Of a DNA stretch of 64,000 bases, positions 2,265 to 24,970 are shown piece by piece. Origin of the DNA: Candidatus Lloydbacteria bacterium RIFCSPHIGHO2_02_FULL_50_18 (GTDB lineage Bacteria > Patescibacteriota > Minisyncoccia > Phycocordibacterales > UBA6899); assembly GCA_001821395.1 (NCBI GenBank), contig MHLM01000006.1, forward strand, positions 9,733 through 73,732, in the 5' to 3' direction. Positions within the stretch are counted from its first letter, which is position 1. Each line of letters starts with the position of its first letter. A program made the translations under genes and the position numbers. Under the pieces are notes generated by a model, which saw nothing but the letters and a program-made list of their open reading frames with translations, was not told where the DNA came from and searched no databases.

Positions 2265-3406
2265 GTAATTACTTGAGTGAGGATTGCGTTTCGCATCGCC
2301 CTCGTTAGTTCGATAGAATTTTGCAACTGCTTCTTGATCTCCGTAAGTTGAGCAAGGTTCCTGAGAATATCTTTTTGCTTCTCGAGAGTAGGAACATAGA
2401 TTTTATACTCGGAAACAATCTTATGAGATATGCGAGGCATCTTTGTCCCAAACCCCAGGGAAACAGCATAGTGAATGAAACCATCAGAGTGTAGGTGGTG
2501 GAGAACGTATTCAATGTCTATATCAGGCGTTGCATCATACACAAGCAATTCCGTTGTACAGACTCCATCAAATGATGGAATAACAGCCTTATCCAAATTG
2601 GGGCGTAGCTTGCTATAGAGCAATTGCCCGCTTTTGAAGACGTTGCAAGAGGACTGTGATTGTTGAGCGTCGCCATAAGCATCTACATTAAACGACCCTG
2701 GTTCAATATGCTCCAAACCTAAGTATTTCTCAAGTTTGTGTGGCGGAGCACTCTTCATCTTTGAAAGTTTTAAACATTCGCCTAGTTTTTTCCTGTCTAG
2801 TTTATTCTTAGTGAGTTCAGCAAAAATTGTCTTGAGTGTCAAATTTATTTTGTCCGCCGCGATTCTGTATTTCTCTTCCAATTGATCTGACGCTATCAAA
2901 AGACCCAGTATTTTCTTCTGTACCTGACGGGGTGGCAGAAGAAATTTCTGTTGCGCAAGAATTTTCCATTTAATGGTCGGTGAAAGTGAGCCTTCAGAGA
3001 TATCTATCGCCCGATTCATAAATGCGTCAGAATGCATAAAGAATGGAAGAAAATCTGGTTCAATATGGGATGAATCTGCGCGGACGACCATCGCATGTGC
3101 GGAGCAAATTCCATCAAACTCTGCTATGGAGGCTTTTCTCTGGTATGCACGCCGTTTCCCAAAGATTATGTCCCCTTTATATACACGAAGCTTGACGCCT
3201 TTTACATCAGACGGCACGCCGAATCGACGGATGTGAATAGAGTCGGAATCTAGATGTTCAAGACCAACATAAATATCGGCATCGGAACTGTTCGGGTCAA
3301 CCCTTTCAGAGATATTCTTCGCTATATCACCAAACTTAGCCAACTCCCAATCGGAGCGGTTATGTTTAACGAAAATATTTTCAGCTTGTTTATTAAGAGT
3401 TTTCAT
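2261..3406 (-). CDS. hsdS: Type I R-M specificity subunit HsdS (two TRD halves)
   Basis: 381-aa ORF between hsdM and hsdR. 14-nt overlap with hsdM and 4-nt ATGA overlap with hsdR. Two variable halves, each followed by a helical conserved spacer (..SDQLEEKYRIAADKINLTLKTIFAEL.. and ..LEKQKDILRNLAQLTEIKKQLQNSIELTRAM..). Confidence 0.75.
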   Translation of the reverse strand: MKTLNKQAENIFVKHNRSDWELAKFGDIAKNISERVDPNSSDADIYVGLEHLDSDSIHIRRFGVPSDVKGVKLRVYKGDIIFGKRRAYQRKASIAEFDGICSAHAMVVRADSSHIEPDFLPFFMHSDAFMNRAIDISEGSLSPTIKWKILAQQKFLLPPRQVQKKILGLLIASDQLEEKYRIAADKINLTLKTIFAELTKNKLDRKKLGECLKLSKMKSAPPHKLEKYLGLEHIEPGSFNVDAYGDAQQSQSSCNVFKSGQLLYSKLRPNLDKAVIPSFDGVCTTELLVYDATPDIDIEYVLHHLHSDGFIHYAVSLGFGTKMPRISHKIVSEYKIYVPTLEKQKDILRNLAQLTEIKKQLQNSIELTRAMRNAILTQVIT

Positions 3407-4880
3407 ATGTTTTTTTGTCTAACATCTCTAAGAGAGATCGGGATCCCCTTTTTAGGTCAGAACTATTCTGAGACCATTCCTCTACTACCACTCGGAGTCC
3501 TTTTTCTTTAATACCATTCCCTTGAGTAGATATGTAGAGCGGAATATTAAGATTTGCGTTATTGTTGAGGATATTTTGATTGTCGATCACTTTCGTAAAA
3601 TTTGGTATATCAATAAATTCCTTAAATGCTGCATGAATTCTTTCAACATGTGGATCTTCAAGAAAAGAAAAAGCATTCTGCCGCGTTACTTCTTTAACAG
3701 CATTTATAAAAAGTACTCTACCTTTTCGTTCTTTAGGTTTGTCCCAACGGCAAACCAACAAGCAGGCCTCCATGGGTGAGTTGTAAAATAGATTTGGGCC
3801 CAAACCGATGACTGCTTCGATTACGTCATCCTTTAGCATTTTTTCTCTGAACTCCCGCTCAGAATCACGAAAGAGAACCCCGTGAGGCCAAAGGACAATG
3901 CTCCGGCCGTTTTTCTTGTCTAGGCTTTTGAGAATATGCTGCTCAAAAGCATAGTCTGCACATCCTTGTGGAGGGGTGCCGTAAATGTTTCTCCCGTAAG
4001 GATCATTCGTCCACGCATCTCGATTCCACCTCTTAACTGAATACGGCGGGTTCGCAAGGATGACGTCGAAGGTTTTAAGTTTGTCGTCCTCCAAAAACTT
4101 TGGGCTAGACAATGTGTCTCCACGCTCAATATGAAAGTCCTCGATTCCATGAAGAAACATGTTCATTCGCGCGATGGAGGATGTCATCAGATTCAACTCT
4201 TGCCCATAGAGCTTAAGCGTTCGGTATTCTTTACTCTGGTCCTTAAGTTGGTTTACGCAGTTCAGTAATAACCCACCAGAACCACAAGTTGGATCGTATA
4301 CGCTCTCACCTGGCTGGGGGTTCATTATCAAGCTCATTAAACGAACGACCGTACGATTGGTGTAGAACTCAGCAGCTGTATGCCCACTATCATCTGCAAA
4401 CTTCTTGATAAGGAATTCATATGCATTACCAAGTTCGTCATTGGGAACATTGGCAATGCTTAGGTCTTGTTCAGAAAAATGTTCGAGTAGGTCTATTAGA
4501 ATCTCGTCAGATAGACGACTCTTGTTTGTCCAAGAGGCGTCGCCAAAAATACCGAATAAACGATCCTCGTTCGTCTTTTCAATTTTGCGGAGCGCCTTCT
4601 GTAGGGCATCCCCCACATTAACCGTCACCTGTCGAACATCATTCCAGTGTGCCCCTTTGGGAATTTGGAATCTATGATTTTCATCAAATTTTGCATATTC
4701 TTTGTCGCCCCCCGATTCATTGAGTGCCCGCTCGTATTCTTCTTTGTAGACATCACAGATGCGCTTATAAAATAATAAGGGGAAAATATATTGCTTGTAG
4801 TCTCCAGCATCAATGACACCACGAAGAAGTGTCGCCGCTCCCCAAAGATATCTTTCCAGTTCTTGTTTTTTAATAGCCAT
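3393..4880 (-). CDS. hsdM: Type I R-M N6-adenine DNA methyltransferase HsdM (copy 1, NPPY type)
   Basis: 495 aa. HsdM N-domain FPLLFYKRICD. AdoMet motif VYDPTCGSGGLLL. Catalytic motif ANPPYS. Confidence 0.9.
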   Translation of the reverse strand: MAIKKQELERYLWGAATLLRGVIDAGDYKQYIFPLLFYKRICDVYKEEYERALNESGGDKEYAKFDENHRFQIPKGAHWNDVRQVTVNVGDALQKALRKIEKTNEDRLFGIFGDASWTNKSRLSDEILIDLLEHFSEQDLSIANVPNDELGNAYEFLIKKFADDSGHTAAEFYTNRTVVRLMSLIMNPQPGESVYDPTCGSGGLLLNCVNQLKDQSKEYRTLKLYGQELNLMTSSIARMNMFLHGIEDFHIERGDTLSSPKFLEDDKLKTFDVILANPPYSVKRWNRDAWTNDPYGRNIYGTPPQGCADYAFEQHILKSLDKKNGRSIVLWPHGVLFRDSEREFREKMLKDDVIEAVIGLGPNLFYNSPMEACLLVCRWDKPKERKGRVLFINAVKEVTRQNAFSFLEDPHVERIHAAFKEFIDIPNFTKVIDNQNILNNNANLNIPLYISTQGNGIKEKGLRVVVEEWSQNSSDLKRGSRSLLEMLDKKTYENS

Positions 4881-4881
4881 A

Positions 4882-6369
4882 CTATTTTGATATCAGAGAA
4901 AACCCATCTAAGAGTCTTTTGAGTTCTGTCTCAGCCTCCCATACCTCCTCGAGAGAATTCTTCAACTCTTTCGTGGCCTCTTCTACTGACGGGAGTGTCT
5001 TACCTGAAATCTTTTCAATATAAAGAGAAATATTTAGGCTCCAATCATTTGCCGCAATGTCTTTGAGGGTTGCCACCACGGCGTGGTCTTTAACACCCTT
5101 GAACGCAGAGTACCAGTCGAAAATCTGATCAACATGCCTCTGCTCAAGATAATTTTGAGCACGATCCACGCGCACCTGGTCTGATGCGTCTATAAACAAA
5201 ACCTTACCTTCTTTGTTGTCAGGCTTATTAGCACGAAATACTAAAATGCATGCGGCAACTGTTGCTCCATAGAAGATATTAGGCCCAAGTCCTATCACTG
5301 CTTCAAGCGCATCTGTCTCTATTATTTTCTTTCTTATTTGTCCTTCTCGACCCTTGCGAAATAGTGCGCCATGAGGAAGAACCACGGCTATGCGTCCGCG
5401 AGGATAAGACATGGATTTGATCATGTGTTGCACCCACGCGTAATCTCCATAACCAGCTGGTGGTACCCCTGCAAAATTTCTACCGTATGGGTCCTGAATC
5501 CAAAGGTCATCACCCCACTTCTTTAGGGAGAAGGGTGGATTAGCAATAACGCAATCAAAGGTCGAAAGTTGATCGCCTTCATAGTATGCGGGACTTCGTA
5601 ATGTATCTCCACGCTGAATTTGGAAGTCCTGAACATCGTGGAGGAACATGTTCATGCGAGCAATGGATGAAGTGGTGAGGTTTTTTTCCTGTCCAAATAT
5701 TTTTAGAGTGCGGGCGTCCTTACCATGAGAGCGTAGGTGCTCAACACAATTGAGTAGCATGCCTCCCGTACCACAGGCTGGGTCATATACAGTCTCACCT
5801 TCTTTTGGATCAATTATACGGCCCATGAGCTGAACAACTGTTCTCGGTGTATAAAACTCCCCCGCTTTCTTGTTTGTTAAATCAGCAAACTTTTTTATGA
5901 GGTATTCGTATGCCTGACCGAGCATGTCGAGGTCGACCGTTCCGTTTGCCAGCTTGTATTCAGAAAAATGTTCAATAAGTTCCACCAATAAGCTGTCGGG
6001 CAACTTCTCCTTGTTGGTCCATTGTGCATCTCCAAAGATCCCATACAGAAAATCAGGATTGGCTTTTTCAATTTCACGAAATGCATACTGAAGCTTTGCT
6101 CCAACATTCTTTGTGGTGGCGCGCACATCTGCCCAATGACATCCATCAGGAATTATAAATCTATGGAATTCTGGCAAAACTGCGTAACCCTCATCGCCCT
6201 TAGATTCTTCTAATAGCTTTTTATATTCATCATCATAAACATCTGAAAGTCGTTTAAAAAACAGGAGTGGAAAAACATATACCTTAAAATCAGCAGCATC
6301 AACTGGCCCCTTGAGTATCCATGCGGCTTGAGCGAGATGTTGTTCGAGTTGTGGGAGTGTCAATTTCAT
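4882..6369 (-). CDS. hsdM: Second divergent HsdM paralogue (copy 2, NPPF type)
   Basis: 495 aa, colinear with copy 1. Shared blocks GIFGDAxWTNK, EYLIKKFAD, VYDPACGTGGMLL, SSIARMNMFLH, ANPPFS, LPHGALFR, EAVIGLGPNIFY. Roughly half the residues are identical by eye. 1-nt gap to copy 1. Confidence 0.9.
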   Translation of the reverse strand: MKLTLPQLEQHLAQAAWILKGPVDAADFKVYVFPLLFFKRLSDVYDDEYKKLLEESKGDEGYAVLPEFHRFIIPDGCHWADVRATTKNVGAKLQYAFREIEKANPDFLYGIFGDAQWTNKEKLPDSLLVELIEHFSEYKLANGTVDLDMLGQAYEYLIKKFADLTNKKAGEFYTPRTVVQLMGRIIDPKEGETVYDPACGTGGMLLNCVEHLRSHGKDARTLKIFGQEKNLTTSSIARMNMFLHDVQDFQIQRGDTLRSPAYYEGDQLSTFDCVIANPPFSLKKWGDDLWIQDPYGRNFAGVPPAGYGDYAWVQHMIKSMSYPRGRIAVVLPHGALFRKGREGQIRKKIIETDALEAVIGLGPNIFYGATVAACILVFRANKPDNKEGKVLFIDASDQVRVDRAQNYLEQRHVDQIFDWYSAFKGVKDHAVVATLKDIAANDWSLNISLYIEKISGKTLPSVEEATKELKNSLEEVWEAETELKRLLDGFSLISK

Positions 6370-6599
6370 TTTGGTGACGATGTCAGCTTTTCAACGGTAG
6401 TCCCCAGAGCTGTGGCAATTTTTACCATCGTTGCCACTCGGGGATCAGGAGTGAGTCCGCTCTCAATCTTCGCAATGGTGTGATAATCAAGGCCGGTTTT
6501 CGTAACCAGCTTGCTCTTAGACAATCGCTTTTCATTTCTAATTTTTCTCAAGTTTCCTGCGATATTTGAGAATTTTTTTGGGTGAGATTTCTTTTTCAT
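6366..6599 (-). CDS. XRE-family helix-turn-helix transcriptional regulator (first gene of the R-M operon; C-protein-like position)
   Basis: 77 aa. HTH_3 signature ..LSKSKLVTKTGLDYHTIAKIESG... 4-nt overlap with downstream hsdM copy 2. Divergent from the recombinase gene. Confidence 0.7.
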   Translation of the reverse strand: MKKKSHPKKFSNIAGNLRKIRNEKRLSKSKLVTKTGLDYHTIAKIESGLTPDPRVATMVKIATALGTTVEKLTSSPK

Positions 6600-6756
6600 A
6601 CGACAACCTTGCTTAGCATAATTATACCAAATTTATTGAGTTTTTGCTGCAATAAAAAGTGGATAAAAATAGGGCTATTTGAGGGATGGTTACCAACAGC
6701 TTACCAACTGACCCTCCCTGGACTCCCTGGGAGGGTTGCGTCATCAATTGGTGTGT

Positions 6757-8112
6757 ATGAAAAATACAAACCCGCTAGAGGGCTCTGACGAGCCGAAAAT
6801 TAAGTACTGTTTATACGCTAGAAAATCGAGCGAATCGGACGAGCAGCAAGCCCTTTCGATCGACTCCCAAGCCAAGGAGATGCTCCAGCTGGCGCAACGA
6901 GAGGGGCTTGATGTGGTCGACATCAAGCGCGAGTCGCACTCCGCAAAAAGCACCGGGCAACGCCCGGTCTTCAATGAGCTGATCAGCGACCTCAAGGAGG
7001 GCAAGTTTAATGCCATTCTCGCATGGCATCCGGATCGCTTAAGCAGAAATGCAGGCGACCTCGGTGCTATCGTCGACCTGATGGACGAGCACCGACTTAT
7101 CGAAGTGAGAACCTTTGGTCAAAAGTTTACAAATAGTCCAAGCGAGAAGTTTCTACTCATGATTCTATGCTCGCAAGCAAAGCTTGAGAACGACAACAAG
7201 GGCGTGAACGTGAAGCGGGGGCTACGAGCAAAAGTTGAGATGGGACTATGGCCATGCGTTGCACCGACCGGATACATCAACGACCGCATGCCTGGGCGTG
7301 CAGGATATGTGCTCGTCGACCCGGTGCGTGCTCCGATTATCAAGCAAATATTTGAAAAGGTCGGCAATGACCGATGGAGCGCTAGGACGGTTTATAAATG
7401 GATGGTCAAAGAAGGAAAGTTCAATAGCGTGAGAAAAGGAAATAAGGCACTCACCCTGAGCACAATCTATCGACTTCTGCATCAGCCTTTCTATTCGGGA
7501 ACATTCGAGTACCCCACCGGGAGCGGTAACTGGTACAAAGGTCAACATGAGCCACTCGTTTCCAAGGAACTCTTCGAGAAGGTGCAGCAAAAAATAGCGG
7601 AGGAGTTGAAGTCAAAGAAACAATATCAAGAATTCACCTTCACGAACCTTATGCTCTGCGGATACTGTGGGTCAGGTATTACCGCACAATCAAAAGACAA
7701 AAATCTCAAAGATGGGAGCGTCAAAAGTTACACCTACTACAACTGCACGCACAACAAGGATCACTTCTGCAAAAACCCGTTCATTCGCGAAGAAGAACTT
7801 CTCAAACAGATCGATGAGATCTTCGACAAGATCGATATCGACGAACTTGGAACACGGCATATCATTGAAAGAGAGGTTGCGCGATACAACAACATTCGGG
7901 CAAAACTCCTCGGCGCAAAAGAAAATGACAAAGCACTCGACGTCGACGTGCGAAACTATGCCAAGTACATGCTCAAAGAAGGCACGATGCTCGAAAAACG
8001 CGAACTCCTAGGGTGCCTAAAAAATAGAATTATTCTGAAGGATAAAACGATAACGCTTGAAAAAAGTTTGCAAATTAATGACTTAACGCCACAAACACAG
8101 ATAGCACGCTGA
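6757..8112 (+). CDS. Large serine recombinase (resolvase/invertase catalytic domain + recombinase domain + zinc-ribbon)
   Basis: Catalytic region KYCLYARKSSESDEQQALSIDSQ (Ser nucleophile context). Later AWHPDRLSRN. Cys cluster CGYCGS...YNCTHN. The track ORF starts at 6736; ATG 6757 (MKNTNP..) is more likely. Confidence 0.85.
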   Translation: MKNTNPLEGSDEPKIKYCLYARKSSESDEQQALSIDSQAKEMLQLAQREGLDVVDIKRESHSAKSTGQRPVFNELISDLKEGKFNAILAWHPDRLSRNAGDLGAIVDLMDEHRLIEVRTFGQKFTNSPSEKFLLMILCSQAKLENDNKGVNVKRGLRAKVEMGLWPCVAPTGYINDRMPGRAGYVLVDPVRAPIIKQIFEKVGNDRWSARTVYKWMVKEGKFNSVRKGNKALTLSTIYRLLHQPFYSGTFEYPTGSGNWYKGQHEPLVSKELFEKVQQKIAEELKSKKQYQEFTFTNLMLCGYCGSGITAQSKDKNLKDGSVKSYTYYNCTHNKDHFCKNPFIREEELLKQIDEIFDKIDIDELGTRHIIEREVARYNNIRAKLLGAKENDKALDVDVRNYAKYMLKEGTMLEKRELLGCLKNRIILKDKTITLEKSLQINDLTPQTQIAR

Positions 8113-8440
8113 GGATGACGAGTATCTTCACCCCACCTCCATACACAATCCAAGTAAATAATTTTTTTGCAGCAAGCATAACTATTCCGAGCACCAGAAT
8201 GGAAACTCCAACGCCCGTGAGTGGGTCGTGCAATCCTTTCATAGGAGCATGAGTCCAAACAAAAAATATACCTACGACAACCATAAGCCGCGCAATTATG
8301 TTAAACCAGCTTATGGAATCTTCGTGGCCAAAAGGAGCACCTCCTATGCCAACTTTCTTAGCAAAGAAGACACGAGTTACTGCTCCGGCAACACTTGCGA
8401 TAACACGAATTACTAACTGTTGGAAAAAACTCCCATCCAT
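8075..8440 (-). CDS. Small polytopic membrane protein (about 4 TM helices), last gene of the Ubl operon; candidate effector
   Basis: 121 aa. Hydrophobic segments LVIRVIASVAGAVTRVFFA, IIARLMVVVGIFFVW, GVGVSILVLGIVMLAA, VKILVILSVLSVFVALS. Start 1 nt after the JAB-E1 stop codon. Confidence 0.5.
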   Translation of the reverse strand: MDGSFFQQLVIRVIASVAGAVTRVFFAKKVGIGGAPFGHEDSISWFNIIARLMVVVGIFFVWTHAPMKGLHDPLTGVGVSILVLGIVMLAAKKLFTWIVYGGGVKILVILSVLSVFVALSH

Positions 8441-8441
8441 A

Positions 8442-9833
8442 CTATTTTAAGTTCTCATCAAAAACTTGATAACTATCATCATTTGAGTCTCCTTTTCCGG
8501 TAAATTCTGAGAATGGGCAATTTGGCAAGCAGTCTTCACCGAGTTTTCTTTCCAGCTCCCCGGTAACAAAATGGTATAGATTTTCACCGTGATGACTTAT
8601 GCCGTTGGGTTTTACTACAAGTGCCAACATCTGTAGCACCATCATTGAGGCGAGGTGCATGCTAAAAGCAAAAACGTTTTGATTGTTCAAGTGATGGCGC
8701 AAACCGTCAACGGTGTTTATGTACTCCGAATCATCCAGCAGACCTTTGCGTTCAAGAGACACTTCAGCAAAGGTGTACTGCCCAATGCACGAGAGACATT
8801 TATTACCCGGGGTTGCAGTGTGCGCACGCCAATCCGCTGAGCGCAACAAATCCTCCTTGGTGTGCACTCGAATACCACCATCAACGACTGGAATCAGGTG
8901 TGTATAAGCAATGTAATTAAGAACGTGGCGCGCCCACGGCCTATCAACGCAACTGAACAGGAGGTCACAATTTAGTGCACCTCGGTATCCCTCAGCTCCA
9001 GTTACATGAACTGGTAATCGTGTGACGAAAAAGTTGTCGGCAGTTGCGTGTTCAATAAGTCTTTTTGCAATTACATCCGTCTTCAATTCACCAACATCTT
9101 TTATCGTCGCATGCATAAGTCGATCGAGGTTGTGTTTCTTTACTACGTCAAAATCGATAAGCGAAATATGCTGAACTCCAGTTCTAGCAAGTGCCTCAGC
9201 AATAGCACTTCCGACACTTCCCGTGCCGACTATTCCTATGTGTAAACGAGATAATTCGTCTTGCTTATCTTGACCCCATGAAGAAATTGTACGTTTCAGT
9301 TCTTCTCTAAAACCCTGCGGCTTAAGCAGCGCGTCACAATAGGTGATAGAAAGGCCCATTTGACCTATAGTGCGAACACTCTCGCACCATGATGGAGCAT
9401 ATTCCCGAACCCCGGTTCTATTCCAAAAACGAGCACTCCACGCACCATCTGTGCCTATAGTTAGTCCAAGGAGGGGTCGTTCTGTTATTCCAAAGGTTGC
9501 CGCAGCGTGCGATAACTCCGCCCGAACATCGGTCCTGCTCATATTCTGCCATCCAGGAAACGGGTGGCTATGCATAAAAGCAAGGCCCATATCTCGGGCG
9601 GATGCTATTTGTAGTGCTCTCTGAAAATACTCGGGAGAAAAACTCGCGTTGCCATGCACTTCCCGCTCTCCGTCTTCAGGAAGAATCGGTTCAACCAAGA
9701 GTGCTGTCAGTCTTTCTCCTCCGCTGCTCGGCTGCCACAAAGCAAAACATAAGTCTTCCTGCCCATCCTTACGCACAAGATGAGAAAAGAGTTTCTGGTT
9801 TACCTCGGTTGTCATCGCTACGCTGTATCTCAT
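8442..9833 (-). CDS. JAB/MPN metallopeptidase fused to E1-like ThiF/MoeB adenylyltransferase
   Basis: N-terminal JAMM motif AFMHSHPFPGWQNMSRTD (HxH..S..D). C-terminal Rossmann/E1 motif GIVGTGSVGSAIAEALARTGVQHISLIDFDVVKKHNLDRL and Cys-containing CLSCIGQ. 4-nt overlap with the upstream gene. Confidence 0.8.
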   Translation of the reverse strand: MRYSVAMTTEVNQKLFSHLVRKDGQEDLCFALWQPSSGGERLTALLVEPILPEDGEREVHGNASFSPEYFQRALQIASARDMGLAFMHSHPFPGWQNMSRTDVRAELSHAAATFGITERPLLGLTIGTDGAWSARFWNRTGVREYAPSWCESVRTIGQMGLSITYCDALLKPQGFREELKRTISSWGQDKQDELSRLHIGIVGTGSVGSAIAEALARTGVQHISLIDFDVVKKHNLDRLMHATIKDVGELKTDVIAKRLIEHATADNFFVTRLPVHVTGAEGYRGALNCDLLFSCVDRPWARHVLNYIAYTHLIPVVDGGIRVHTKEDLLRSADWRAHTATPGNKCLSCIGQYTFAEVSLERKGLLDDSEYINTVDGLRHHLNNQNVFAFSMHLASMMVLQMLALVVKPNGISHHGENLYHFVTGELERKLGEDCLPNCPFSEFTGKGDSNDDSYQVFDENLK

Positions 9834-10192
9834 AGTGTGTTGAGGAGTTTTATAACGTGAGCAAGGTAAACATCGACGTTACGTTTACTACTTTCCCAGC
9901 TCGGGTGCGGCCTACTAAGATGCATCCACTCAGGGCCAAAATCACTGTCGTGAATTCGATCACGATGCTCCTGTGATGAGGTGTTGGTGGGCAACGTACG
10001 CGGATGAATATGTGGGCCGTGGGGAGCAGTCAGCTCAAAGTCTCCTGGGACATCTACCCCAACGCGAACTGTCTTGCCTGCAAGAGTTCCTTCGTTGACA
10101 GACAGCGCAAATGCCAGCCGATTGCCTTCAAGGTTTTCAACCTCAAAACCAAGATTCTTGAGACCTTGAATAAATTTTTCTTTGCCGCTCAT
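9830..10192 (-). CDS. UBC/UEV-like protein lacking any cysteine (putative non-catalytic E2 variant; identity uncertain)
   Basis: 120 aa. Segment VRVGVDVPGDFELTAPHGPHIHP resembles the UBC beta-meander plus HPN-motif region. No Cys anywhere in the protein. Starts 6 nt after the Ubl stop. Confidence 0.45.
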   Translation of the reverse strand: MSGKEKFIQGLKNLGFEVENLEGNRLAFALSVNEGTLAGKTVRVGVDVPGDFELTAPHGPHIHPRTLPTNTSSQEHRDRIHDSDFGPEWMHLSRPHPSWESSKRNVDVYLAHVIKLLNTL

Positions 10193-10197
10193 GTTGT

Positions 10198-10452
10198 TTA
10201 CCCCACAGGCGTTTGTCCAGTAAACACCGTGACGAACTTCATGTGATTATGCATCTTGATCACCTCGTCCAAATCTTTATGCGGTTCCTGCTGATGACCC
10301 TTAACCTCAACCAAATAGTACTGCTGCGAATCGACATTCGCCATTGATAATATCTCTCGAACAGACAACTCCTTCTTTTCAGTAGTGAGTGTTTCACCGT
10401 CGACCGTAAAATCGATACCGTGACCTTTTTCCTCCTTCTCGTGGTTTTCCAT
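10198..10452 (-). CDS. ThiS/MoaD-like ubiquitin-like beta-grasp protein ending in ...TPVG-COOH
   Basis: 84 aa. Beta-grasp pattern IDFTVDGETLTTEKKELSVREIL ... KFVTVFTGQTPVG followed by stop TAA. No C-terminal extension after the terminal Gly. Confidence 0.6.
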   Translation of the reverse strand: MENHEKEEKGHGIDFTVDGETLTTEKKELSVREILSMANVDSQQYYLVEVKGHQQEPHKDLDEVIKMHNHMKFVTVFTGQTPVG

Positions 10453-10501
10453 ACAGTTTTTTTATATAATTAATGAATTAACACATGAACCAATATTCCT
10501 C

Positions 10502-10530
10502 TTGACTCTGGACGAGAGTCGCGGTAACCT
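10502..10530 (+). promoter_or_regulatory. Putative promoter of the HTH gene (TTGACT-17-TAACCT) with embedded operator palindrome GACTCTGGACGAGAGTC
   Basis: Read directly. -35 at 10502-10507, -10 at 10525-10530. Palindrome 10504-10520. A second near-palindrome TGTTTCACTAGTCAAACA at 10562-10579. Confidence 0.35.
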
Positions 10531-10591
10531 GTTTCATATGTAAGACAGTGTACACCTGAGGTGTTTCACTAGTCAAACACTTTTTTCATTT

Positions 10592-10942
10592 ATGAAACAC
10601 AATAAAAACAGCGTCAATTTTGCTATTGAGCAATTGGGTCAGAAGGTCGCGCTTAAAAGATCGGGAAGCGGGATGAGAGATACCTCCGCAGAGATTGGCA
10701 TCAGCCCTGCTACCCTCTCGCGAATCGAGAGGGGGTACATGCCCGATATCGGCACATTCCAAAAAGTATGCACTTGGCTCAACATTGATCCGGGTGAAAT
10801 TCTTGGTGCAAAAACTCACGTCAGTGAGGTGCAGATGGCAACTGTGCATTTTCGTAAGAAGCAAACGGTTGCTCCGGAAACCGCGCAAGCTTTAGCACAA
10901 CTCATTATTGCAGTACAAAATAATGTTCTCGCATCAGAGTAA
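10592..10942 (+). CDS. XRE-family HTH regulator (CapH-like), divergent from the Ubl operon
   Basis: 116 aa. HTH ..DTSAEIGISPATLSRIERGYMPD.. Confidence 0.8.
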   Translation: MKHNKNSVNFAIEQLGQKVALKRSGSGMRDTSAEIGISPATLSRIERGYMPDIGTFQKVCTWLNIDPGEILGAKTHVSEVQMATVHFRKKQTVAPETAQALAQLIIAVQNNVLASE

Positions 10943-10960
10943 AAAACTGATTATGTTGTC

Positions 10961-11539
10961 ATGTTTAAAAAAGGATTTAAAACCTGGTGTGAAAGAGCTT
11001 CAATTAGTACTCGCAGACAACTGGGTCTGCAATCTTTCGATCCGATAGACTTATACAAGGTCGCGGCAATCGTCGAGGCTGATATTAAGTATCCAAAAGA
11101 TGTTCCTGGGCTTGATAAAAAGTTTTTAAAAATTTTAACGGAGGAGGACCCAGATAGCTGGTCTGCAATAACCATAAAAATAAAACAGAAAATCGTTATT
11201 ATTCTAAACTCTGCCCACACCAAAGCGCGTCAGATGAGTAGTCTTGGTCATGAGTTATCTCATTTGATTATCGGACACCCTGCGTCCAAAACTGGTATTT
11301 CAGCAGATGGGCTTTTGATAACTGGGTTCGATCGACTTCAAGAGGATGAGGCGGGATGGCTTTCGGGGTGTCTTCTTTTGCCCCATGATGCGTGTCAGTA
11401 TATTAAAAAGACAAAGATGGACCAAAGCAGTGCTCAACGACATTACGGAATAAGCGCTGATATGTATACATATCGCATGAACGCCTCTGGGGTAAATCGC
11501 TTGTGGACCCCTAAAGTAAGTAGCATTAAAGCGAAGTAA
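10961..11539 (+). CDS. ImmA/IrrE-family zinc metallopeptidase (CapP-like)
   Basis: 192 aa. VIILNSAHTKARQMSSLGHELSHLIIGH (HExxH in ImmA context). Follows the HTH gene with 18-nt spacing. Confidence 0.8.
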   Translation: MFKKGFKTWCERASISTRRQLGLQSFDPIDLYKVAAIVEADIKYPKDVPGLDKKFLKILTEEDPDSWSAITIKIKQKIVIILNSAHTKARQMSSLGHELSHLIIGHPASKTGISADGLLITGFDRLQEDEAGWLSGCLLLPHDACQYIKKTKMDQSSAQRHYGISADMYTYRMNASGVNRLWTPKVSSIKAK

Positions 11540-11613
11540 CGACCTATCAGGTCTAGAACCTTTAATGCCAAAAAGCGACCCTTCTGGGTCGCCTCTTGGG
11601 TCTCTGCGTCGGG

Positions 11614-11686
11614 GGTGCCTATAGGGAATCGAACCCTAGCTAAAGGCTCCACAAGCCTCTGTGCTAACCGCTACACCATAGGCACC
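11614..11686 (-). tRNA. tRNA-His (anticodon GUG) with encoded G-1 and C73
   Basis: Manual fold of the reverse complement GGTGCCTATGGTGTAGCGGTTAGCACAGAGGCTTGTGGAGCCTTTAGCTAGGGTTCGATTCCCTATAGGCACC. Acceptor GTGCCTA/TAGGCAC. G-1 pairs with C73. Anticodon loop TTGTGGA. T-loop TTCGATT. Confidence 0.85.
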
Positions 11687-11878
11687 ATGCATAAACCAAA
11701 CTCACACAACGACCACACTACTTTTTCACGTCATGATGTGGACCATGAACGAAAACGCACCTTGCGGTGCTGACTAGGATAATAACAGACTTTCAAAAAA
11801 AATCAACGTCACGCCAGTCTTCGGTTCTCCCCGTTAAAAACAGAAGAAAGGCCCCATGGCAGGAGGCCTTCTGATAAC

Positions 11879-12346
11879 TCACACGACGTGTTCGATGATG
11901 ACCCTTCGATGAAGCGTGACGCGGTCTCCCGCCGAGAGCGAAAGTCCGTAGTGATTGAGGGCAAAATAATCACTGCTCTCTTTTGCATCAGCACCATACA
12001 CCCGCACTGCGATCTTTTTTTGAGAGCACGCAACCAACACCACACCATGAAGCACTCGGCAGTCCCCTTCGTGCCCGTGATGATGACGCCAGAACAAGGT
12101 TATGGTCTCTTTTGTCCACGGAGATTTCCCTTGTTGACCGGCAAACGCAAAAAGACCGCGCGTCGCATCTGCAAAACATTCCATGAGCAGGGCCTGTTCG
12201 GGATCGCCATTCTCTTCGATGAGTTTTTGGAGTGTTGCGACATGCTCCTCCTTTATCAGCCCCCGAGAAAAACGGTCGTCCGTACAAACATATGCATAGC
12301 GCAGAAAAAGCTGCTCTCCCGTCAGTAAGGTCATAATGTTCTCCAA
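11879..12346 (-). CDS. Hypothetical protein (weak resemblance to the YfcE-type metallophosphoesterase C-terminal half)
   Basis: 155 aa. WRHHHGHEGDCRVLHGVVLVACS loosely resembles the GHTH..NPGS region. Low confidence. Confidence 0.3.
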   Translation of the reverse strand: MENIMTLLTGEQLFLRYAYVCTDDRFSRGLIKEEHVATLQKLIEENGDPEQALLMECFADATRGLFAFAGQQGKSPWTKETITLFWRHHHGHEGDCRVLHGVVLVACSQKKIAVRVYGADAKESSDYFALNHYGLSLSAGDRVTLHRRVIIEHVV

Positions 12347-12390
12347 AGTGCTACCTGTGCGGAGTATAGCAAAAGAATATTGGAACGCAA

Positions 12391-12909
12391 TTAAAACTTA
12401 CGGCTATCGTAAGCCCAATGCAAAAGTGCTTGACGCTGGCGGGGACGACAGAAAATATCTCCGGCACGACAGTTATTGCGTACCTGCGCGATGTGCCGCG
12501 TCATCGCCTTCCAGCGCTTGATCTGTCGGGTGTCTTCTATTGGAATACGCCGACCAATATAATACCGACAATACCACTGAAACCAACCGCGCGGATCGTC
12601 GTCGTAGATCCAGCCTTTTGCTTTCCATACGGCAAGTGATTGAGAGGCGTGCACACCAAAATAATTCAATGACTTATCCGCCTTTCCTTTTGCGAGTCTT
12701 GCGCCCTTCCACCACGATGCAGGAAATTCATCAGTGCAGTCACGCATATACTTTCCACCAAAGACACCGAGTGCGAGCATCTCGCGAGGTGTGAGGTCGG
12801 GCTTAAAGAGAGGATCAAAATCCTTTCCCACGAGCGCCGTACACGTGTAGTGATAGTTATGCTGCATAGTGTCATGGACAACTATCATTCTTGTTTCTCC
12901 ACTCTTCAT
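12391..12909 (-). CDS. Conserved hypothetical protein (Trp-rich; no family recognised)
   Basis: 172-aa ORF with protein-like composition (..WKAKGWIYDDDPRGWFQWYCRYYIGRR..). Confidence 0.45.
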   Translation of the reverse strand: MKSGETRMIVVHDTMQHNYHYTCTALVGKDFDPLFKPDLTPREMLALGVFGGKYMRDCTDEFPASWWKGARLAKGKADKSLNYFGVHASQSLAVWKAKGWIYDDDPRGWFQWYCRYYIGRRIPIEDTRQIKRWKAMTRHIAQVRNNCRAGDIFCRPRQRQALLHWAYDSRKF

Positions 12910-12919
12910 AATTGTATGA

Positions 12920-13483
12920 TCAATAGCGAGGTTGTTCTTCCTTCACATCCCCGCGATGATTTGCCAATCGCGCGAGTGCGTAGAGCAGAGATGAAAGTCG
13001 ATTCATGTATTGAAACATCGGAGGGTGAAGCGCGGGGTCGGCGATATTAAGTGCGCACACAACACGACGTTCAGCGCGCCGTGCGACCGTCCGTGCGAAA
13101 TCACATAATGCCGCAAGCTTCGTTCCTCCGGAAACAAAGAACGAAGTGATGGGTGACAGCTCGCCCTCGATCAGCCCGATCCATTCCTCCAGTTTTTTGA
13201 CACGTGTAATATCCATCTTTTTGTCTGCTCCGGCAAGTTCTGCTTGAATAACAAAGAGGTCTTGCTGAACGAGCGATAAGAGCTGCTGATAATTAAGACC
13301 GTCTGTCGCAATGGTATTTCCTCCCGCTAATTTTACAATACCCAACAGTGAGTTAATCTCATCAACCGTTCCGAGTGCTTCGGCAATATCCGAACTTTTT
13401 GCGATGCGTTGATCGCAACCAAACAGCTGCGTCGTACCGTTATCACCTTTTCCCGTGAATAGCATGTTCATAGTATAAGACAA
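12920..13483 (-). CDS. PduO-type ATP:cob(I)alamin adenosyltransferase family protein
   Basis: N-terminal signature LFTGKGDNGTTQLFG (compare YTKTGDKGTTSL of PduO/MMAB-type adenosyltransferases). 187 aa. Confidence 0.7.
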   Translation of the reverse strand: MSYTMNMLFTGKGDNGTTQLFGCDQRIAKSSDIAEALGTVDEINSLLGIVKLAGGNTIATDGLNYQQLLSLVQQDLFVIQAELAGADKKMDITRVKKLEEWIGLIEGELSPITSFFVSGGTKLAALCDFARTVARRAERRVVCALNIADPALHPPMFQYMNRLSSLLYALARLANHRGDVKEEQPRY

Positions 13484-13552
13484 CGTTAACCTTTTGACGA
13501 AAGCAGCCCCACGAGATAGAGTGGCGGAAGATCATCAGGAAAGGAGTTCGTC

Positions 13553-14179
13553 ATGGCGCTTCCTTCTCAAGCCAAAGCAGCTTGCTACCAAAAAACGCTT
13601 CCGATCGGTGCCTTTCTTTTTCTTTTTCAAATAGCGATCCTTATCTGGATCGTGTTCAGCCGTACTCTTGGTGCGGACACGTTTCATGCACTGCTTGACG
13701 TCCTTACGCTTGCAGGCACGACATATTTATTCCAACGAAACTGGAAGACGGAAGAAGAGTTCGAACGATACGAACATCGATGGCTCCTAATCGGTGTCAT
13801 CTCGCTCGGATTGGGGGGTATCATGGTTGGACTCGAATCTGCCTCCTGCCTGCTCAGAGGAACGGCCTCAACACCTCCTCCCGCGTGGCCGCTCCTTATT
13901 GCGGCACTCGTGGGTGCACTCGGAAATTGGCGCATGCACCACCTCCTCGAATCGGTCGAGGACGCCGAGCACGACCACCTGCACAAGAACAACCTCGATC
14001 ACGTATTCTGGGATATGATTCTATCATTCGCGGTCTTTTGCTCCGGCTGTTCGATGCTGCTCTTTGCAACGAGTGCGGTCGACGGTTGGATCGCCACGGT
14101 CGTTGGCTTCATCGTTCTCCCCTATCTTGCACTGAAGCGATGGAAAGAGGGGACTCATGAACACGCGCATCATCACTAG
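13553..14179 (+). CDS. Membrane protein, cation-diffusion-facilitator-like TM domain with His-rich C-terminus
   Basis: 208 aa, about 5-6 TM. HALLDVL (HxxxD) in a TM segment. C-terminus EGTHEHAHHH. Overlapping His/Arg-rich ORFs on other frames treated as spurious. Confidence 0.45.
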   Translation: MALPSQAKAACYQKTLPIGAFLFLFQIAILIWIVFSRTLGADTFHALLDVLTLAGTTYLFQRNWKTEEEFERYEHRWLLIGVISLGLGGIMVGLESASCLLRGTASTPPPAWPLLIAALVGALGNWRMHHLLESVEDAEHDHLHKNNLDHVFWDMILSFAVFCSGCSMLLFATSAVDGWIATVVGFIVLPYLALKRWKEGTHEHAHHH

Positions 14180-14267
14180 AACGATACTCCCGCAGTTATG
14201 CTGCGGGAGCTTTTTATACAAAAAACCCGCCCATATCATAGGCGGGTTGTAGAACCCAAACAAGAAA

Positions 14268-17206: not shown

Positions 17207-17281
17207 TTGCGTCTCCTAAAGAAAACAGGGTGCGTCTGGCGCACCCTGTAAGGTTTAAATCACAATTGTCGCACGGTTCTC

Positions 17282-19219: not shown

Positions 19220-19589
19220 GACTATCTCCTTATTTACCGGTGAATGATAAGCGAAGTGTGGTTGCGCACCCACATGATTCCTCGCCGCAGAATGTCAAAG
19301 AACGATATTGTTCTTACCCTTTTTCAGACTAACATCGTACTCAACGTCGTAAAGATTGATATATTGTCAAATATGTTGCGCAACTGAAGCATGGGTGAAC
19401 AGCGAGGACAACAGCGACTCTTCCGTGGGTAAAGCTTGGATTTCTCTCGACCTGTCTGCTAGACTAGCCAGATCAAGCACTGAGCGGAAGTACCCCTTGA
19501 GATAACTTGGCATTCGTCCTTGTGAATGAGAAAATATCCAAAAGATGTGCGGCTCCATGGGAGTTTCGAGAGAGTTTTGTGCATTGTGT

Positions 19590-19671
19590 GGGCGTGTGGC
19601 GGAATTGGTATACGCGTACGTCTCAGAAGCGTATCCCGTAAGGGTTGGGAGTTCGAGTCTCCCCACGCCCA
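19590..19671 (+). tRNA. tRNA-Leu (anticodon CAG)
   Basis: GGGCGTG...CACGCCC acceptor stem. Anticodon stem TACGT/GCGTA with loop CTCAGAA. Long variable arm. T-loop TTCGAGT. 82 nt. Confidence 0.85.
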
Positions 19672-19934
19672 CAGAGTGCAAAAAGAGTCTCCCCAAGTTC
19701 ACAAATACTCAGTCAGCCAAAGCGGGCGATTTTTGTTTGTAGCGAAACGTCCACTCACGCAAGCCAAGCAATTAAATAGGGAGGATGCTTGGTCACAGAT
19801 AATTTTCTCGTCGTCATTCGAAAATTTCTGCGACCCCGACTCGCTGCGGTTTCTGCTGAAACCGCATTCGCTCCGTCTTTCAAATCCCCTTAAAAAAAGA
19901 AGATTTGAATCTTACAGATTCGGTACACCTTTCA

Positions 19935-22994: not shown

Positions 22995-23122
22995 ATTTTC
23001 ACCGAAAATTGGTGGCCACTATCAGGGAAAGAAAGTTCTTCGAACAAGAGAGAATATCCTCTCGTACGGCTCTAGGTGAAACGTTACACACGATACAGAA
23101 ACTGCCAAACTCACGTGCGTTC

Positions 23123-24899: not shown

Positions 24900-24935
24900 A
24901 CAGCAATAGTAACTCTCGATAAAATAAAACCATGC

Positions 24936-24964: not shown

Positions 24965-24970
24965 GTTATT

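What the first reader, a model, noticed from the sequence alone, without database searches (positions are those of the whole stretch)
6366..11686. Defence/mobile island context: XRE + large serine recombinase + Ubl system + CapH/CapP, ending at tRNA-His
Seen directly: a large serine recombinase gene (catalytic Ser context YARKSS, Zn-ribbon) lies divergent to an XRE regulator. The region ends at a tRNA-His gene at 11614-11686, a classic island boundary. Including the Type I R-M operon, this whole ~11.7-kb left part of the window looks like an accessory defence island. Its left boundary lies outside the window.
Basis: partly seen in the sequence, partly recalled or inferred. Interest (0 to 1): 0.5.

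Follow-up and report, generated by a model that had tools for sequence, protein, structure and literature searches.

The report
Serine-recombinase defence island beside tRNA-His
The left end of the window is the right-hand two thirds of an 18-kb mobile island, inserted just downstream of a tRNA-His gene in a tiny candidate-phyla-radiation (CPR) bacterium, that carries two anti-phage systems and belongs to a widespread, apparently undescribed family of phage-derived elements moved by a serine recombinase.

Summary
All the genes named are present, and tRNA-His lies at 11611-11686 on the minus strand with its 3' end facing the island.

A 100%-identical metagenome contig extends the window 7.7 kb to the left. 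In the closest genome, homology stops 67 bp past tRNA-His and resumes 15 bp before a dsrE gene. The variable segment is 18.3 kb here and 3.8 kb there. The distal edge carries a copy of the tRNA-His T-arm (12/13 bases, p=0.0005). A strain variant joins the tRNA terminator directly to that edge sequence.

The recombinase is the only recombinase in the segment and is intact. Its relatives (42-67% identity) occur in about 80 loci from CPR genomes, metagenome contigs and predicted viral contigs. Most of these loci share the same-strand backbone MTase-MTase-TerS-TerL-recombinase. In 27 loci the first downstream tRNA is convergent, never co-directional.

The window copy has lost TerL. It carries cargo at two sites: an XRE-led type I R-M operon, and a CapH/CapP-regulated Bub-like ubiquitin-like system. 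An orphan RNA motif (LOOT) also belongs to the family backbone.

Verdict: a real, composite, serine-recombinase-type integrative defence island. The island itself is ordinary in kind. Its family context is unusual. Excision was not shown.

The parts
1..2264 (-). hsdR (type I restriction subunit), 5' two thirds. The gene (989 aa) runs off the left end of the window.
   Evidence: Translation. The full gene on the identical contig L004 has HSDR_N, ResIII, SWI2_SNF2 and T1R_D3-like domains.
2261..3406 (-). hsdS specificity subunit
   Evidence: PADLOC Specificity_I, E 8e-119.
3393..4880 (-). hsdM paralogue 2
   Evidence: PADLOC MTase_I, E 4e-214. It is 51% identical to paralogue 1.
4882..6369 (-). 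hsdM paralogue 1
   Evidence: Pfam N6_Mtase E 1e-100 and HsdM_N.
6366..6599 (-). XRE/C-protein-like HTH. It is the first gene of the R-M operon and overlaps hsdM by 4 bp.
   Evidence: Pfam HTH_3. PADLOC Control_protein 9e-6 and HTH_VI 3e-7. The same XRE-hsdM-hsdM-hsdS-hsdR block sits directly upstream of the recombinase in family locus L070, at 79-84% identity.
6600..6756 (.). Divergent intergenic region between the R-M operon and the recombinase gene. It contains a CCCTCCC...GGGAGGG hairpin.
   Evidence: Sequence. No function was tested.
6757..8112 (+). Large serine recombinase (451 aa). It is the only recombinase in the island.
   Evidence: Pfam Resolvase, Recombinase and Zn_ribbon_recom. 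All residues invariant across 33 family members are present, including R22, S24, R94, R97 and the four Zn-ribbon Cys. PHROG integrase E 6e-71. The closest solved structure is SPbeta SprA/YokA.
8075..8440 (-). 121-aa predicted membrane protein, last gene of the Ubl operon. It overlaps the recombinase 3' end by 38 bp.
   Evidence: No family hit. It reads as hydrophobic, with several apparent membrane-spanning stretches (no transmembrane predictor was run). A multi-pass membrane protein holds the same position in an alphaproteobacterial homologous operon.
8442..9833 (-). JAB/JAMM peptidase fused to an E1 adenylation domain (BubCD-like)
   Evidence: Pfam ThiF. The HSHP...S..D JAMM motif is visible in the sequence. 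The best solved match is Citrobacter BubCD 9ea4, E 2e-23, spanning both domains.
9830..10192 (-). E2-like protein, 120 aa, with no cysteine (BubB-like)
   Evidence: 38% identical to the C-terminal half of the 206-aa Ubl-E2 fusion in locus L123. The absence of Cys is read directly from the sequence.
10198..10452 (-). Ubiquitin-like protein, 84 aa, ending ...TPVG followed by the stop codon
   Evidence: Weak Pfam Multi_ubiq hit, E 1e-4. 41% identical to the N-terminal half of the L123 fusion.
10592..10942 (+). CapH-like HTH repressor, divergent from the Ubl operon
   Evidence: Pfam HTH_3. The arrangement matches the CapH/CapP layout described in PMC10557695 and PMC11601596.
10961..11539 (+). CapP-like M78 metallopeptidase (HELSH motif)
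   Evidence: Pfam Peptidase_M78 3e-9. PADLOC capP 1.4e-8.
11532..11568 (-). tRNA-proximal junction zone ('A'). It holds the 10-mer GGTTCTAGAC (bottom strand; the 11-mer GGTTCTAGACC spans 11550-11560).
   Evidence: Identity with strain variant L016 ends at 11568. Homology with genome L020 ends at 11544. The same 10-mer lies about 50 nt after tRNA-His in L042 and L043, with one mismatch in L020, and is unique in each locus.
11570..11592 (-). Terminator-like hairpin (GCGACCC-AGAA-GGGTCGC followed by T5) downstream of tRNA-His
   Evidence: Sequence. It is shared at 100% with L016.
11611..11686 (-). tRNA-His(GTG). Its 3' end faces the island.
   Evidence: ARAGORN. Rfam tRNA, 62.7 bits. It is syntenic with Cob_adeno_trans in 13 of 14 related genome loci scanned.

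Best explanation
**What it is.** Window 1 to about 11568, plus 6.7 kb lying to the left of the window, is one 18.3-kb integrative element. It was inserted by its own large serine recombinase into the short spacer between tRNA-His (plus terminator) and dsrE, in a Parcubacteria/Lloydbacteria-like CPR genome.

**The family.** The element belongs to a Patescibacteria-wide family. The ancestral backbone runs on one strand: ParB-MTase, MTase, TerS, TerL, recombinase. A LOOT RNA leader usually points away from the recombinase gene. The recombinase end abuts the 3' side of a tRNA gene.

**This copy.** It is degraded as a phage-like entity because TerL is gone, but the recombinase is intact. Two cargo sites are loaded.
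- Site 1, between the LOOT/TerS side and the recombinase, holds three unknown genes and an XRE(C-protein)-led type I R-M operon with two HsdM paralogues.
- Site 2, between the recombinase and the tRNA, holds a Type I Bub-like ubiquitin-like conjugation operon: Ubl, a Cys-less E2, a JAB-E1 fusion and a membrane protein. It sits under a divergent CapH/CapP-like pair, presumably a DNA-damage-responsive switch.

**Shown.** Gene content, island limits against relatives, the tRNA-like repeat at the distal edge, the family backbone and the tRNA orientation bias.

**Inferred.** That the recombinase catalysed the insertion, that it recognises tRNA-end-like half-sites, and that the cargo acts in phage defence.
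For: **Extent of the island.**
- Contig L004 is 100% identical to the window over 13,406 bp and extends it by 7,740 bp.
- The closest genome, L020, aligns up to window 11544 and again from about -6767, 15 bp before dsrE (95% aa identity). The interval is 18.3 kb here and 3.8 kb there.
- The dsrE-side junction falls at the same point in L121 and L122. Both carry a family element at that position.

**Edges.**
- The distal edge holds GGTTCGACTCCCT against the tRNA-His T-arm GGTTCGATTCCCT. It is the only hit with one mismatch or fewer in 21 kb. Smith-Waterman shuffle p = 0.0005.
- Strain variant L016 is identical to the window up to the terminator. It then continues with a homologue of that distal edge (p < 0.0005).
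- Four metagenome contigs from four samples end 21-34 bp beyond the tRNA 3' end.

**Recombinase.**
- It is the only recombinase in the island.
- All family-invariant residues are present.

**Family pattern.**
- In 27 loci the first tRNA downstream of the recombinase is convergent, and in none is it co-directional. At least nine tRNA species are involved.
- A GACC motif lies within 45 nt after those tRNAs in 16 of 23 cases, against 7 of 86 control tRNAs.
- Copies of the tRNA 3' end favour the direct strand in 15 loci against 2.
- L046 and L047 differ by a second element inserted exactly at the 3' end of an intron-containing tRNA.

**Backbone.**
- Homologues of the window's two MTases occur upstream of the recombinase in 61-63 of 76 loci, and of TerS in 57 of 76, almost always on the same strand as the recombinase. 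TerL occurs in about 45.
- The window keeps the same order and strand for the MTases, TerS and recombinase.
- The same XRE plus type I R-M block sits upstream of the recombinase in L070.

**Cargo and composition.**
- Family cargo ORFs hit many R-M and DRT defence models.
- Composition is atypical.
Against: - No excised circle, attP junction or clean attB was recovered. Downstream of the shared 45 bp, L016 continues into unknown sequence rather than dsrE.
- The two island edges are not significantly similar to each other (A against B, p = 0.84). Crossover points are therefore not defined.
- TerL is missing. The recombinase lies 3.5 kb from one edge and 13.5 kb from the other.
- Only about a third of family loci show a tRNA. 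ARAGORN misses intron-containing tRNAs, so this may be an undercount.
- IMG/VR provirus limits may themselves have been set at tRNAs. That could explain contig ends but not the orientation bias.
- The extension sequence comes from another sample's assembly, although it is identical across the overlap.
Confidence: 0.6

Rival explanations
1. Static hotspot with a relic recombinase. The tRNA-His to dsrE interval is a recombination hotspot whose contents are swapped by homologous recombination between conserved anchors: tRNA-His, dsrE and the recombinase gene itself. The recombinase once delivered an element but no longer moves anything.
For: - L039 and L043 share the R-M plus recombinase block at 92.5% identity. 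They differ completely from the recombinase stop codon to 10 nt past the tRNA, which is the pattern expected of anchor-mediated cassette exchange.
- TerL is lost here.
- The edge repeats are degenerate, at 17/24.
- The R-M block has a distinct GC, 43.4% against 48.3% for the left backbone part.
Against: - The recombinase retains every invariant residue.
- Tandem copies and presence/absence polymorphism of family elements occur at tRNA ends.
- Family elements sit at at least nine different tRNA species. That requires active site-specific insertion at some time.
- This rival is partly compatible with the main explanation. It differs only on present-day mobility.
Confidence: 0.22
2. Two or three independent insertions rather than one element: an R-M island, a separate recombinase plus Ubl cassette, and a leftover MTase/TerS fragment that happen to lie side by side.
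For: - The Bub and CapH/CapP proteins have no homologue in any of 76 family loci.
- Their nearest relatives are 52-59% identical proteins that include Alphaproteobacteria.
- Independent assemblies break or carry an N-gap at 6404-6453.
- GC differs between blocks.
Against: - Backbone genes flank the R-M block in the family's order and strand: MTase-MTase-TerS and LOOT on one side, the recombinase on the other.
- No tRNA-like or att-like site occurs at the recombinase stop or inside the island.
- The assembly breaks coincide with a 42-bp imperfect palindrome and error-laden contig tips, not with alternative junctions.
- Cargo acquired separately into an element is what the main explanation already proposes.
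Confidence: 0.12
3. The recombinase is an invertase or resolvase that switches the adjacent type I R-M system (phase variation) or resolves replicon dimers. On this reading it is not an integrase.
For: - It lies head-to-head with an R-M operon in the window, L039, L042, L043 and L070.
- JGI annotations call relatives 'DNA invertase Pin-like'.
- There are two hsdM paralogues.
Against: - It has the three-domain large-serine architecture (451 aa) rather than a small, roughly 190-aa invertase.
- There is a single hsdS, and no inverted repeats bracket any segment. The best pairs are 16-31 nt at 71-94% identity and are scattered, consistent with chance.
- Upstream neighbours in the family are as often TerL as R-M.
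Confidence: 0.03

Closest known systems
Temperate-phage large serine integrases (SPbeta SprA, A118, TP901-1, Bxb1, phiC31)
   Same: The three-domain architecture and catalytic residues match. The gene sits at one end of the ancestral element next to the attachment site. SPbeta SprA is the closest solved structure.
   Different: Sequence similarity is remote (E 1e-11). From my own knowledge, characterised serine integrases insert within protein-coding genes, whereas this family sits at the 3' flank of tRNA genes. No recombination directionality factor was identified.
tRNA-associated genomic/pathogenicity islands and P4-like satellites with tyrosine integrases
   Same: The island abuts a tRNA 3' end. 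It has a degenerate copy of the tRNA 3' end at the far edge, atypical composition and variable presence among relatives.
   Different: The integrase is a serine recombinase, not a tyrosine recombinase. The junction lies 43-67 bp beyond the tRNA rather than inside it. The repeat is short and imperfect.
Defence hotspots in P2 prophages and P4 satellites (bioRxiv 10.1101/2021.01.21.427644) and PICI-type satellites
   Same: A small conserved backbone carries fixed positions at which diverse defence systems are exchanged. Packaging genes (TerS, TerL) are present, but no capsid or tail genes were seen among the commonest families in the 10 kb upstream.
   Different: The host phylum (Patescibacteria), the integrase class and the backbone genes differ. 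Dependence on a helper phage is entirely untested.
SCCmec / ccrAB cassette chromosome elements
   Same: A large serine recombinase mobilises a cargo island into the 3' end region of a conserved housekeeping gene. NCBIfam CcrB is the best hit, although far below its cut-off.
   Different: The target is a tRNA flank rather than rlmH. There is a single recombinase gene. The element has a terminase and MTase backbone.
Type I Bub (6E.1) ubiquitin-like operons with CapH/CapP (PMC11601596)
   Same: A JAB-E1 fusion matches Citrobacter BubCD across both domains. The E2 has no cysteine. A divergent CapH/CapP-like pair is present. [quoted passage not shown]
   Different: Ubl and E2 are separate genes here, whereas they are fused in BubAB and in the alphaproteobacterial homologue L123. 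There is no DUF6527/BubE protease. A small membrane protein closes the operon instead.

Membership tests
Large serine recombinase / serine integrase | N-terminal resolvase catalytic domain with the nucleophilic Ser and conserved Arg residues | tested here: met
   Pfam Resolvase E 1e-21. YARKSS is present. R22, S24, D93, R94 and R97 are invariant in 33 homologues and present here.
Large serine recombinase / serine integrase | Recombinase domain plus zinc-ribbon domain with four Cys | tested here: met
   PF07508 E 8e-14 and PF13408 E 2e-9. C301, C304, C330 and C338 are invariant.
Large serine recombinase / serine integrase | Short (about 40-50 bp) attB/attP sites with a central dinucleotide. attL and attR flank the element. 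| tested here: inconclusive
   The junction zones are located: 11544-11568, and about -6716 to -6767. A tRNA-like half-site is found at the distal edge and a hybrid-like site in L016. The crossover is not defined, and A against B is not significant.
Large serine recombinase / serine integrase | Catalyses integration and excision | not testable with these tools
   This needs read-level metagenome data or biochemistry.
tRNA-linked genomic island | Lies at the 3' side of a tRNA gene and is absent or different in close relatives | tested here: met
   L020 has 3.8 kb of unrelated genes between the same flanks.
tRNA-linked genomic island | Direct repeat of the tRNA 3' end at the distal boundary | tested here: met
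   GGTTCGACTCCCT matches the tRNA T-arm at 12/13 and lies within 60 bp of the independently mapped boundary. The repeat is degenerate beyond the T-arm, at 17/24.
tRNA-linked genomic island | Atypical base composition | tested here: met
   GC 45.7% against 48.3%. Dinucleotide distance 0.053 against at most 0.020.
Type I Bub (6E.1) operon | JAB/JAMM peptidase-E1 fusion (BubCD) | tested here: met
   PDB 9ea4 BubCD, E 2e-23, query residues 6-328. The JAMM motif is present in the sequence.
Type I Bub (6E.1) operon | Ubl-E2 fusion protein (BubAB) cleaved by BubCD | tested here: not met
   There are two ORFs separated by a stop codon and 5 nt. The Ubl already ends in Gly. The homologue in L123 is fused (206 aa).
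Type I Bub (6E.1) operon | DUF6527 serine protease BubE | tested here: not met
   No protein in the operon or the island matches any Pfam family of this kind. The fourth gene is a 121-aa membrane protein.
CapH/CapP regulator pair | XRE-type HTH protein plus M78/ImmA-like metallopeptidase, divergent from the regulated operon | tested here: met
   PF01381 and PF06114. PADLOC capP 1.4e-8. The HELSH motif is present. The pair is divergent from the Ubl gene. Damage-induced cleavage was not tested.
Type I restriction-modification system | hsdR, hsdM and hsdS in one operon | tested here: met
   The system has an extra hsdM paralogue and a leading C-protein-like HTH.
DNA invertase / shufflon switch | Small serine recombinase with inverted repeats bracketing an invertible segment | tested here: not met
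   The protein is 451 aa with three domains. No credible inverted repeats were found.
Phage satellite (PICI/P4-like) | Integrase plus packaging-redirecting genes, no virion structural genes, helper dependence | tested here: inconclusive
   TerS and TerL plus an integrase are present. No portal or capsid PHROG appears among the 25 commonest families in 13 loci. Only 10 kb was sampled, and helper dependence is untestable here.

The most novel reading that the evidence does not exclude
The island represents a previously undescribed, Patescibacteria-wide family of small terminase-encoding elements with three features.
- The serine integrase uses the 3' ends or flanks of many different tRNA genes as attachment sites, perhaps by reading T-arm-like half-sites.
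- The elements stack in tandem at those tRNAs.
- They serve as exchangeable carriers of defence systems at two fixed cargo sites.

On this reading the orphan LOOT RNA is the conserved leader of one cargo site.
Probability: 0.4. Interest if true: 0.7.

Novelty: new variant of a known kind. Interest (0 to 1): 0.52.

Why it matters
CPR/Patescibacteria have tiny genomes, and little is known about their mobile elements or how they acquire phage defence. This locus shows that about 2% of a roughly 1-Mb genome can be one integrative element that carries two defence systems.

The element also points to a large, coherent family (dozens of loci here and thousands of recombinase homologues) that could explain defence turnover in this phylum.

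Serine integrases that target tRNA flanks would broaden the known target range of a recombinase class used for genome engineering.

The link to LOOT gives a genomic context to an RNA motif that has had none.

The Ubl operon is a natural split version of a Bub system, with a membrane protein in place of the BubE protease.

Tried and rejected
- **Exact repeat search.** An exact 11-mer search for repeats of the tRNA-His region across -7740..20000 found nothing. The repeats are degenerate and appeared only with mismatch-tolerant scans.
- **Metagenome scan.** A metagenome-contig scan with the 151-aa neighbour gene returned only two loci. One was the same organism as L020.
- **Extending variant contig L016.** This failed. 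Its ORF fragment was too short for a homologue search. Its tail matches nothing in any fetched locus, including the dsrE-side genes of L121 and L122.
- **Walking left beyond -7740.** This was blocked because only window-encoded or search-returned proteins can be looked up.
- **A separate att site at the recombinase stop codon.** This would have made the Ubl cassette an independent element. None was found.
- **Inverted repeats for an R-M switch.** Only chance-level pairs were found.
- **Contig breaks at 6404-6453 as an island junction.** Rejected. The breaks coincide with a palindrome, an N-gap and error-laden contig tips.
- **The 9-mer GACTCCCTG.** It is shared between the recombinase upstream region and the distal edge. 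By my own estimate it is about what chance gives (p about 0.05), so it was not used.
- **Literature.** No paper was found on serine recombinases in Patescibacteria prophages. The Durrant et al. LSR preprint does not mention tRNA targets. The LOOT supplement is not held.

Full report
**1. The observation.**

- hsdR (partial), hsdS at 2261-3406, and two hsdM genes at 3393-4880 and 4882-6369.
- A 77-aa XRE HTH protein at 6366-6599.
- A three-domain large serine recombinase at 6757-8112, with the YARKSS motif and the Resolvase, Recombinase and Zn-ribbon domains.
- A minus-strand operon: Ubl (10198-10452), a Cys-less E2-like protein (9830-10192), a JAB-E1 fusion (8442-9833) and a 121-aa membrane protein (8075-8440).
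- A divergent HTH plus M78-peptidase pair at 10592-11539.
- tRNA-His(GTG) at 11611-11686 on the minus strand, with its 3' end pointing into the region.

One correction to the reading is needed. XRE overlaps the first hsdM by 4 bp and matches R-M controller-protein models. It therefore leads the R-M operon and is not a regulator of the recombinase.

**2. Source and extension.**

Exact-protein look-ups found the same locus on several aquifer metagenome contigs. One of them, L004, is 100% identical to the window over 13,406 bp and adds 7,740 bp to the left.

Beyond hsdR the extension carries, in order:
- three unknown genes (384, 188 and 249 aa);
- a 132-aa TerS-like protein;
- two N6/N4 DNA methyltransferases;
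- a 190-aa unknown;
- dsrE and a SHOCT gene.

No tyrosine integrase or transposase is present. A scan of species-representative genomes places the organism among Parcubacteria/Lloydbacteria-like CPR bacteria.

**3. Island limits.**

tRNA-His lies next to the Cob_adeno_trans gene in 13 of 14 related loci scanned, so it is core.

The closest genome, L020, aligns with the window genome through tRNA-His and 67 bp beyond it, to window 11544. That point is 4 bp after the M78 peptidase stop codon. The alignment resumes 15 bp upstream of dsrE, at window about -6767. The interval is 18.3 kb here. In L020 it is 3.8 kb and holds Fic, a REP-associated Y1 (IS200-like) transposase and a permease.

Two further relatives found through dsrE, L121 and L122, lose homology with the window at the same point before dsrE. 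Each carries a relative of the recombinase element there.

The island's GC is 45.7% against 48.3% for the rest of the window. Its dinucleotide signature lies 2.6-fold outside the range of same-size core windows.

**4. Edges.**

An exact-word search for repeats of the tRNA found nothing. Mismatch-tolerant scans show that the distal edge carries GGTTCGACTCCCT against the tRNA T-arm GGTTCGATTCCCT.
- It is the only hit with one mismatch or fewer in 21 kb.
- It lies within 60 bp of the independently mapped boundary.
- It is in direct orientation.
- The local-alignment shuffle p is 0.0005.

A 1.2-kb contig from another sample, L016, is identical to the window from the neighbouring core gene through tRNA-His and its terminator, up to window 11568. 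It then continues with a clear homologue of the distal-edge sequence (p < 0.0005) and skips the 18.3 kb. This is the signature of an unoccupied or differently occupied site. After about 45 bp, however, L016 runs into unknown sequence rather than dsrE, so it is not a clean empty site.

Four other contigs from four samples end 21-34 bp beyond the tRNA 3' end. That suggests strain heterogeneity there.

The tRNA-proximal edge holds GGTTCTAGAC about 50 nt after the tRNA. The same 10-mer occupies the same position in two distant loci that carry related recombinases, L042 and L043, and with one mismatch in L020. The two edges are not significantly alike. I can therefore give junction zones but not crossover points.

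**5. The recombinase family.**

The protein has thousands of homologues. The top 120 are all about 430-450 aa and 57-67% identical (apart from a 97%-identical cluster representative and two truncated fragments), and those with a source annotation come from Patescibacteria. It retains all residues that are invariant in a 33-member alignment.

Six genomic contexts and 69 IMG/VR contigs were examined.
- In 27 loci there is a tRNA 0.1-5.6 kb downstream of the recombinase.
- In all 27 the first tRNA is convergent with it.
- The tRNAs are of at least nine species: His, Ser, Gln, Glu, Asp, Gly, Arg, Asn and Trp.
- The 45 nt after those tRNAs are enriched for a GACC motif, in 16 of 23 cases against 7 of 86 control tRNAs.
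- Copies of the tRNA 3' end favour the direct strand in 15 loci against 2.
- Six viral contigs carry two copies of the recombinase.

L046 and L047 are identical up to one point. Beyond it, L047 has a second element comprising a type III R-M system, a recombinase and a CBASS cyclase. In L046 that point is the exact 3' end of a tRNA that ARAGORN missed because it contains a group I intron.

**6. Backbone and cargo.**

tBLASTn with the island's own proteins gave the following.
- Homologues of the two methyltransferases occur in 61-63 of 76 family loci, and of the TerS-like protein in 57 of 76. Nearly all lie 1-3 kb upstream of the recombinase on the same strand.
- The roughly 500-aa gene directly upstream of the recombinase in many loci is a terminase large subunit.
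- All four backbone genes occur together and co-directionally in 39 of 75 loci.

The window element keeps MTase-MTase-TerS and the recombinase in that order and strand. It lacks TerL and has 12.3 kb of opposite-strand genes between them.

The same XRE-hsdM-hsdM-hsdS-hsdR block, at 79-84% identity but with hsdS at only 31%, sits directly upstream of the recombinase in L070.

In other members the TerL-to-recombinase gap varies from 60 bp to 8 kb, and the recombinase-to-tRNA gap from 0.1 to 5.6 kb. These are two cargo sites. Their ORFs hit many R-M and DRT models.

L039 and L043 share the R-M plus recombinase block at 92.5% identity. They differ entirely between the recombinase stop codon and the tRNA.

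**7. The Ubl cargo.**

The JAB-E1 protein's best solved relative is Citrobacter BubCD, matched over both domains. The E2-like protein has no cysteine, and the Ubl ends in Gly.

An alphaproteobacterial homologue, 54% identical in JAB-E1, has the same layout. There the CapP/CapH-like pair is divergent, Ubl and E2 are fused into one 206-aa protein, and a multi-pass membrane protein follows.

Published work reports CapH/CapP with 31% of Bub operons and notes Bub operons in elements at tRNA genes (PMC11601596; PMC10557695).

Two defining features of Type I Bub are not met here: the fused BubAB protein and the BubE/DUF6527 protease. I therefore describe the operon as Bub-like rather than as a member.

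None of these proteins occurs in the other 76 family loci. The cassette is thus a lineage-specific acquisition.

**8. Mechanism, and what is inferred.**

Shown:
- the limits of the variable segment;
- the tRNA-like repeat at the distal edge;
- an intact serine recombinase as the only recombinase;
- the family backbone;
- the strict convergent-tRNA pattern;
- presence/absence of a sister element exactly at a tRNA end.

Inferred:
- the recombinase inserted the element next to tRNA-His;
- its half-sites resemble tRNA 3' ends;
- later cargo insertions pushed the recombinase gene away from both edges and replaced TerL;
- the R-M and Bub-like operons act against phages, the latter switched on through CapH/CapP.

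Present-day mobility is open.

**9. Rivals.**

- A fixed hotspot with a relic recombinase explains the cassette-swap pattern and the decayed repeats, but not the family's spread over many tRNAs. It differs from the main reading mainly on current activity.
- Independent side-by-side insertions are contradicted by backbone genes on both sides of the R-M block.
- An invertase role is contradicted by the protein's architecture and by the lack of inverted repeats.

**10. Novelty.**

A defence island at a tRNA is a known kind of thing, and so are defence hotspots in prophages and satellites. The variant features here are:
- a serine, not tyrosine, integrase tied to tRNA flanks;
- a terminase and methyltransferase backbone;
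- the CPR host;
- the LOOT RNA link, described under the items noticed in passing.

Literature searches found no description of this family. The held library is incomplete, so this is absence of evidence only.

Noticed in passing
L004 15368-15498 (+), which is about 1.96-2.09 kb left of the window start, inside the island. Also seen in 26 other family loci.: The orphan Rfam motif LOOT (RF03000) is part of this element family.
- Rfam gathering-score hits occur in 9 of 15 loci scanned.
- A model built from them finds 29 hits in 27 of about 78 recombinase loci. It finds none in 17 control loci or in the 64-kb window.
- 24 of 28 hits lie on the strand opposite the recombinase.
- 11 hits lie 153-227 bp upstream of the recombinase start codon.
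- Each hit is followed, usually within about 90 nt, by an ORF. These ORFs are mostly unrelated to one another, so LOOT looks like a conserved leader of a variable cargo site.
   Followed up: partly
L046 12173-12560 (-), with the intron at 12213-12486: A tRNA gene interrupted by a group I intron (RF00028, 79.6 bits). ARAGORN missed it. It lies exactly at the point where L046 and L047 diverge. tRNA counts next to these recombinases are therefore underestimates.
   Followed up: partly
window 6404-6453 (inside the XRE gene): A 42-bp imperfect palindrome, CCCCAGAGCTGTGGCAA...TTGCCACTCGGGG. At this position independent assemblies break with error-laden tips (L002, L009), and the original scaffold carries a run of N (L007). 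This looks like an assembly or sequencing artefact of the hairpin rather than a junction.
   Followed up: partly
window 3393-6369: Two tandem hsdM paralogues, 51% identical, sit in one type I R-M operon with a single hsdS. The pair is conserved in family loci L070, L105 and L113, which suggests a heteromeric methylase.
   Followed up: no
L022 11045-12587: A different large serine recombinase, 31% identical and 499 aa, lies in another relative. The 3' end of its ORF overlaps the 3' end of that genome's tRNA-His by 34 nt. It is followed by a type IIG R-M gene and a SNF2/PLD gene. This is a second serine-recombinase lineage using the same tRNA.
   Followed up: no
L024 10776-10866: Directly after tRNA-His there is an inverted, hairpin-interrupted copy of the tRNA-His 3' end: GGGGGGTGCCTA[AGCGACTGATCTGCATCAGTCGCG]CTAGGGAATCGAA. 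The contig ends there.
   Followed up: no
window 8075-10452, and L123 4357-7523: The Ubl operon is a natural split version of a fused Ubl-E2 gene. It ends in a membrane protein instead of the DUF6527 protease of described Bub systems. JAB-E1 homologues at 52-59% identity number in the thousands.
   Followed up: partly
window 23000-25000 and 56000-60000: Further low-GC stretches (41-43% against about 49%) may be other accessory segments. The first lies just upstream of the tRNA-Arg/tRNA-Val pair at 25209-25423.
   Followed up: no
window 28596-29216: ARAGORN reports a 621-nt 'tmRNA*' that overlaps tRNA-Ser (29122-29210). Rfam gives only the tRNA there at gathering threshold, so the tmRNA call is probably spurious.
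   Followed up: no
window 14268-19000: A prkA-DUF444-spoVR gene trio lies in this CPR genome, just right of the island.
   Followed up: no
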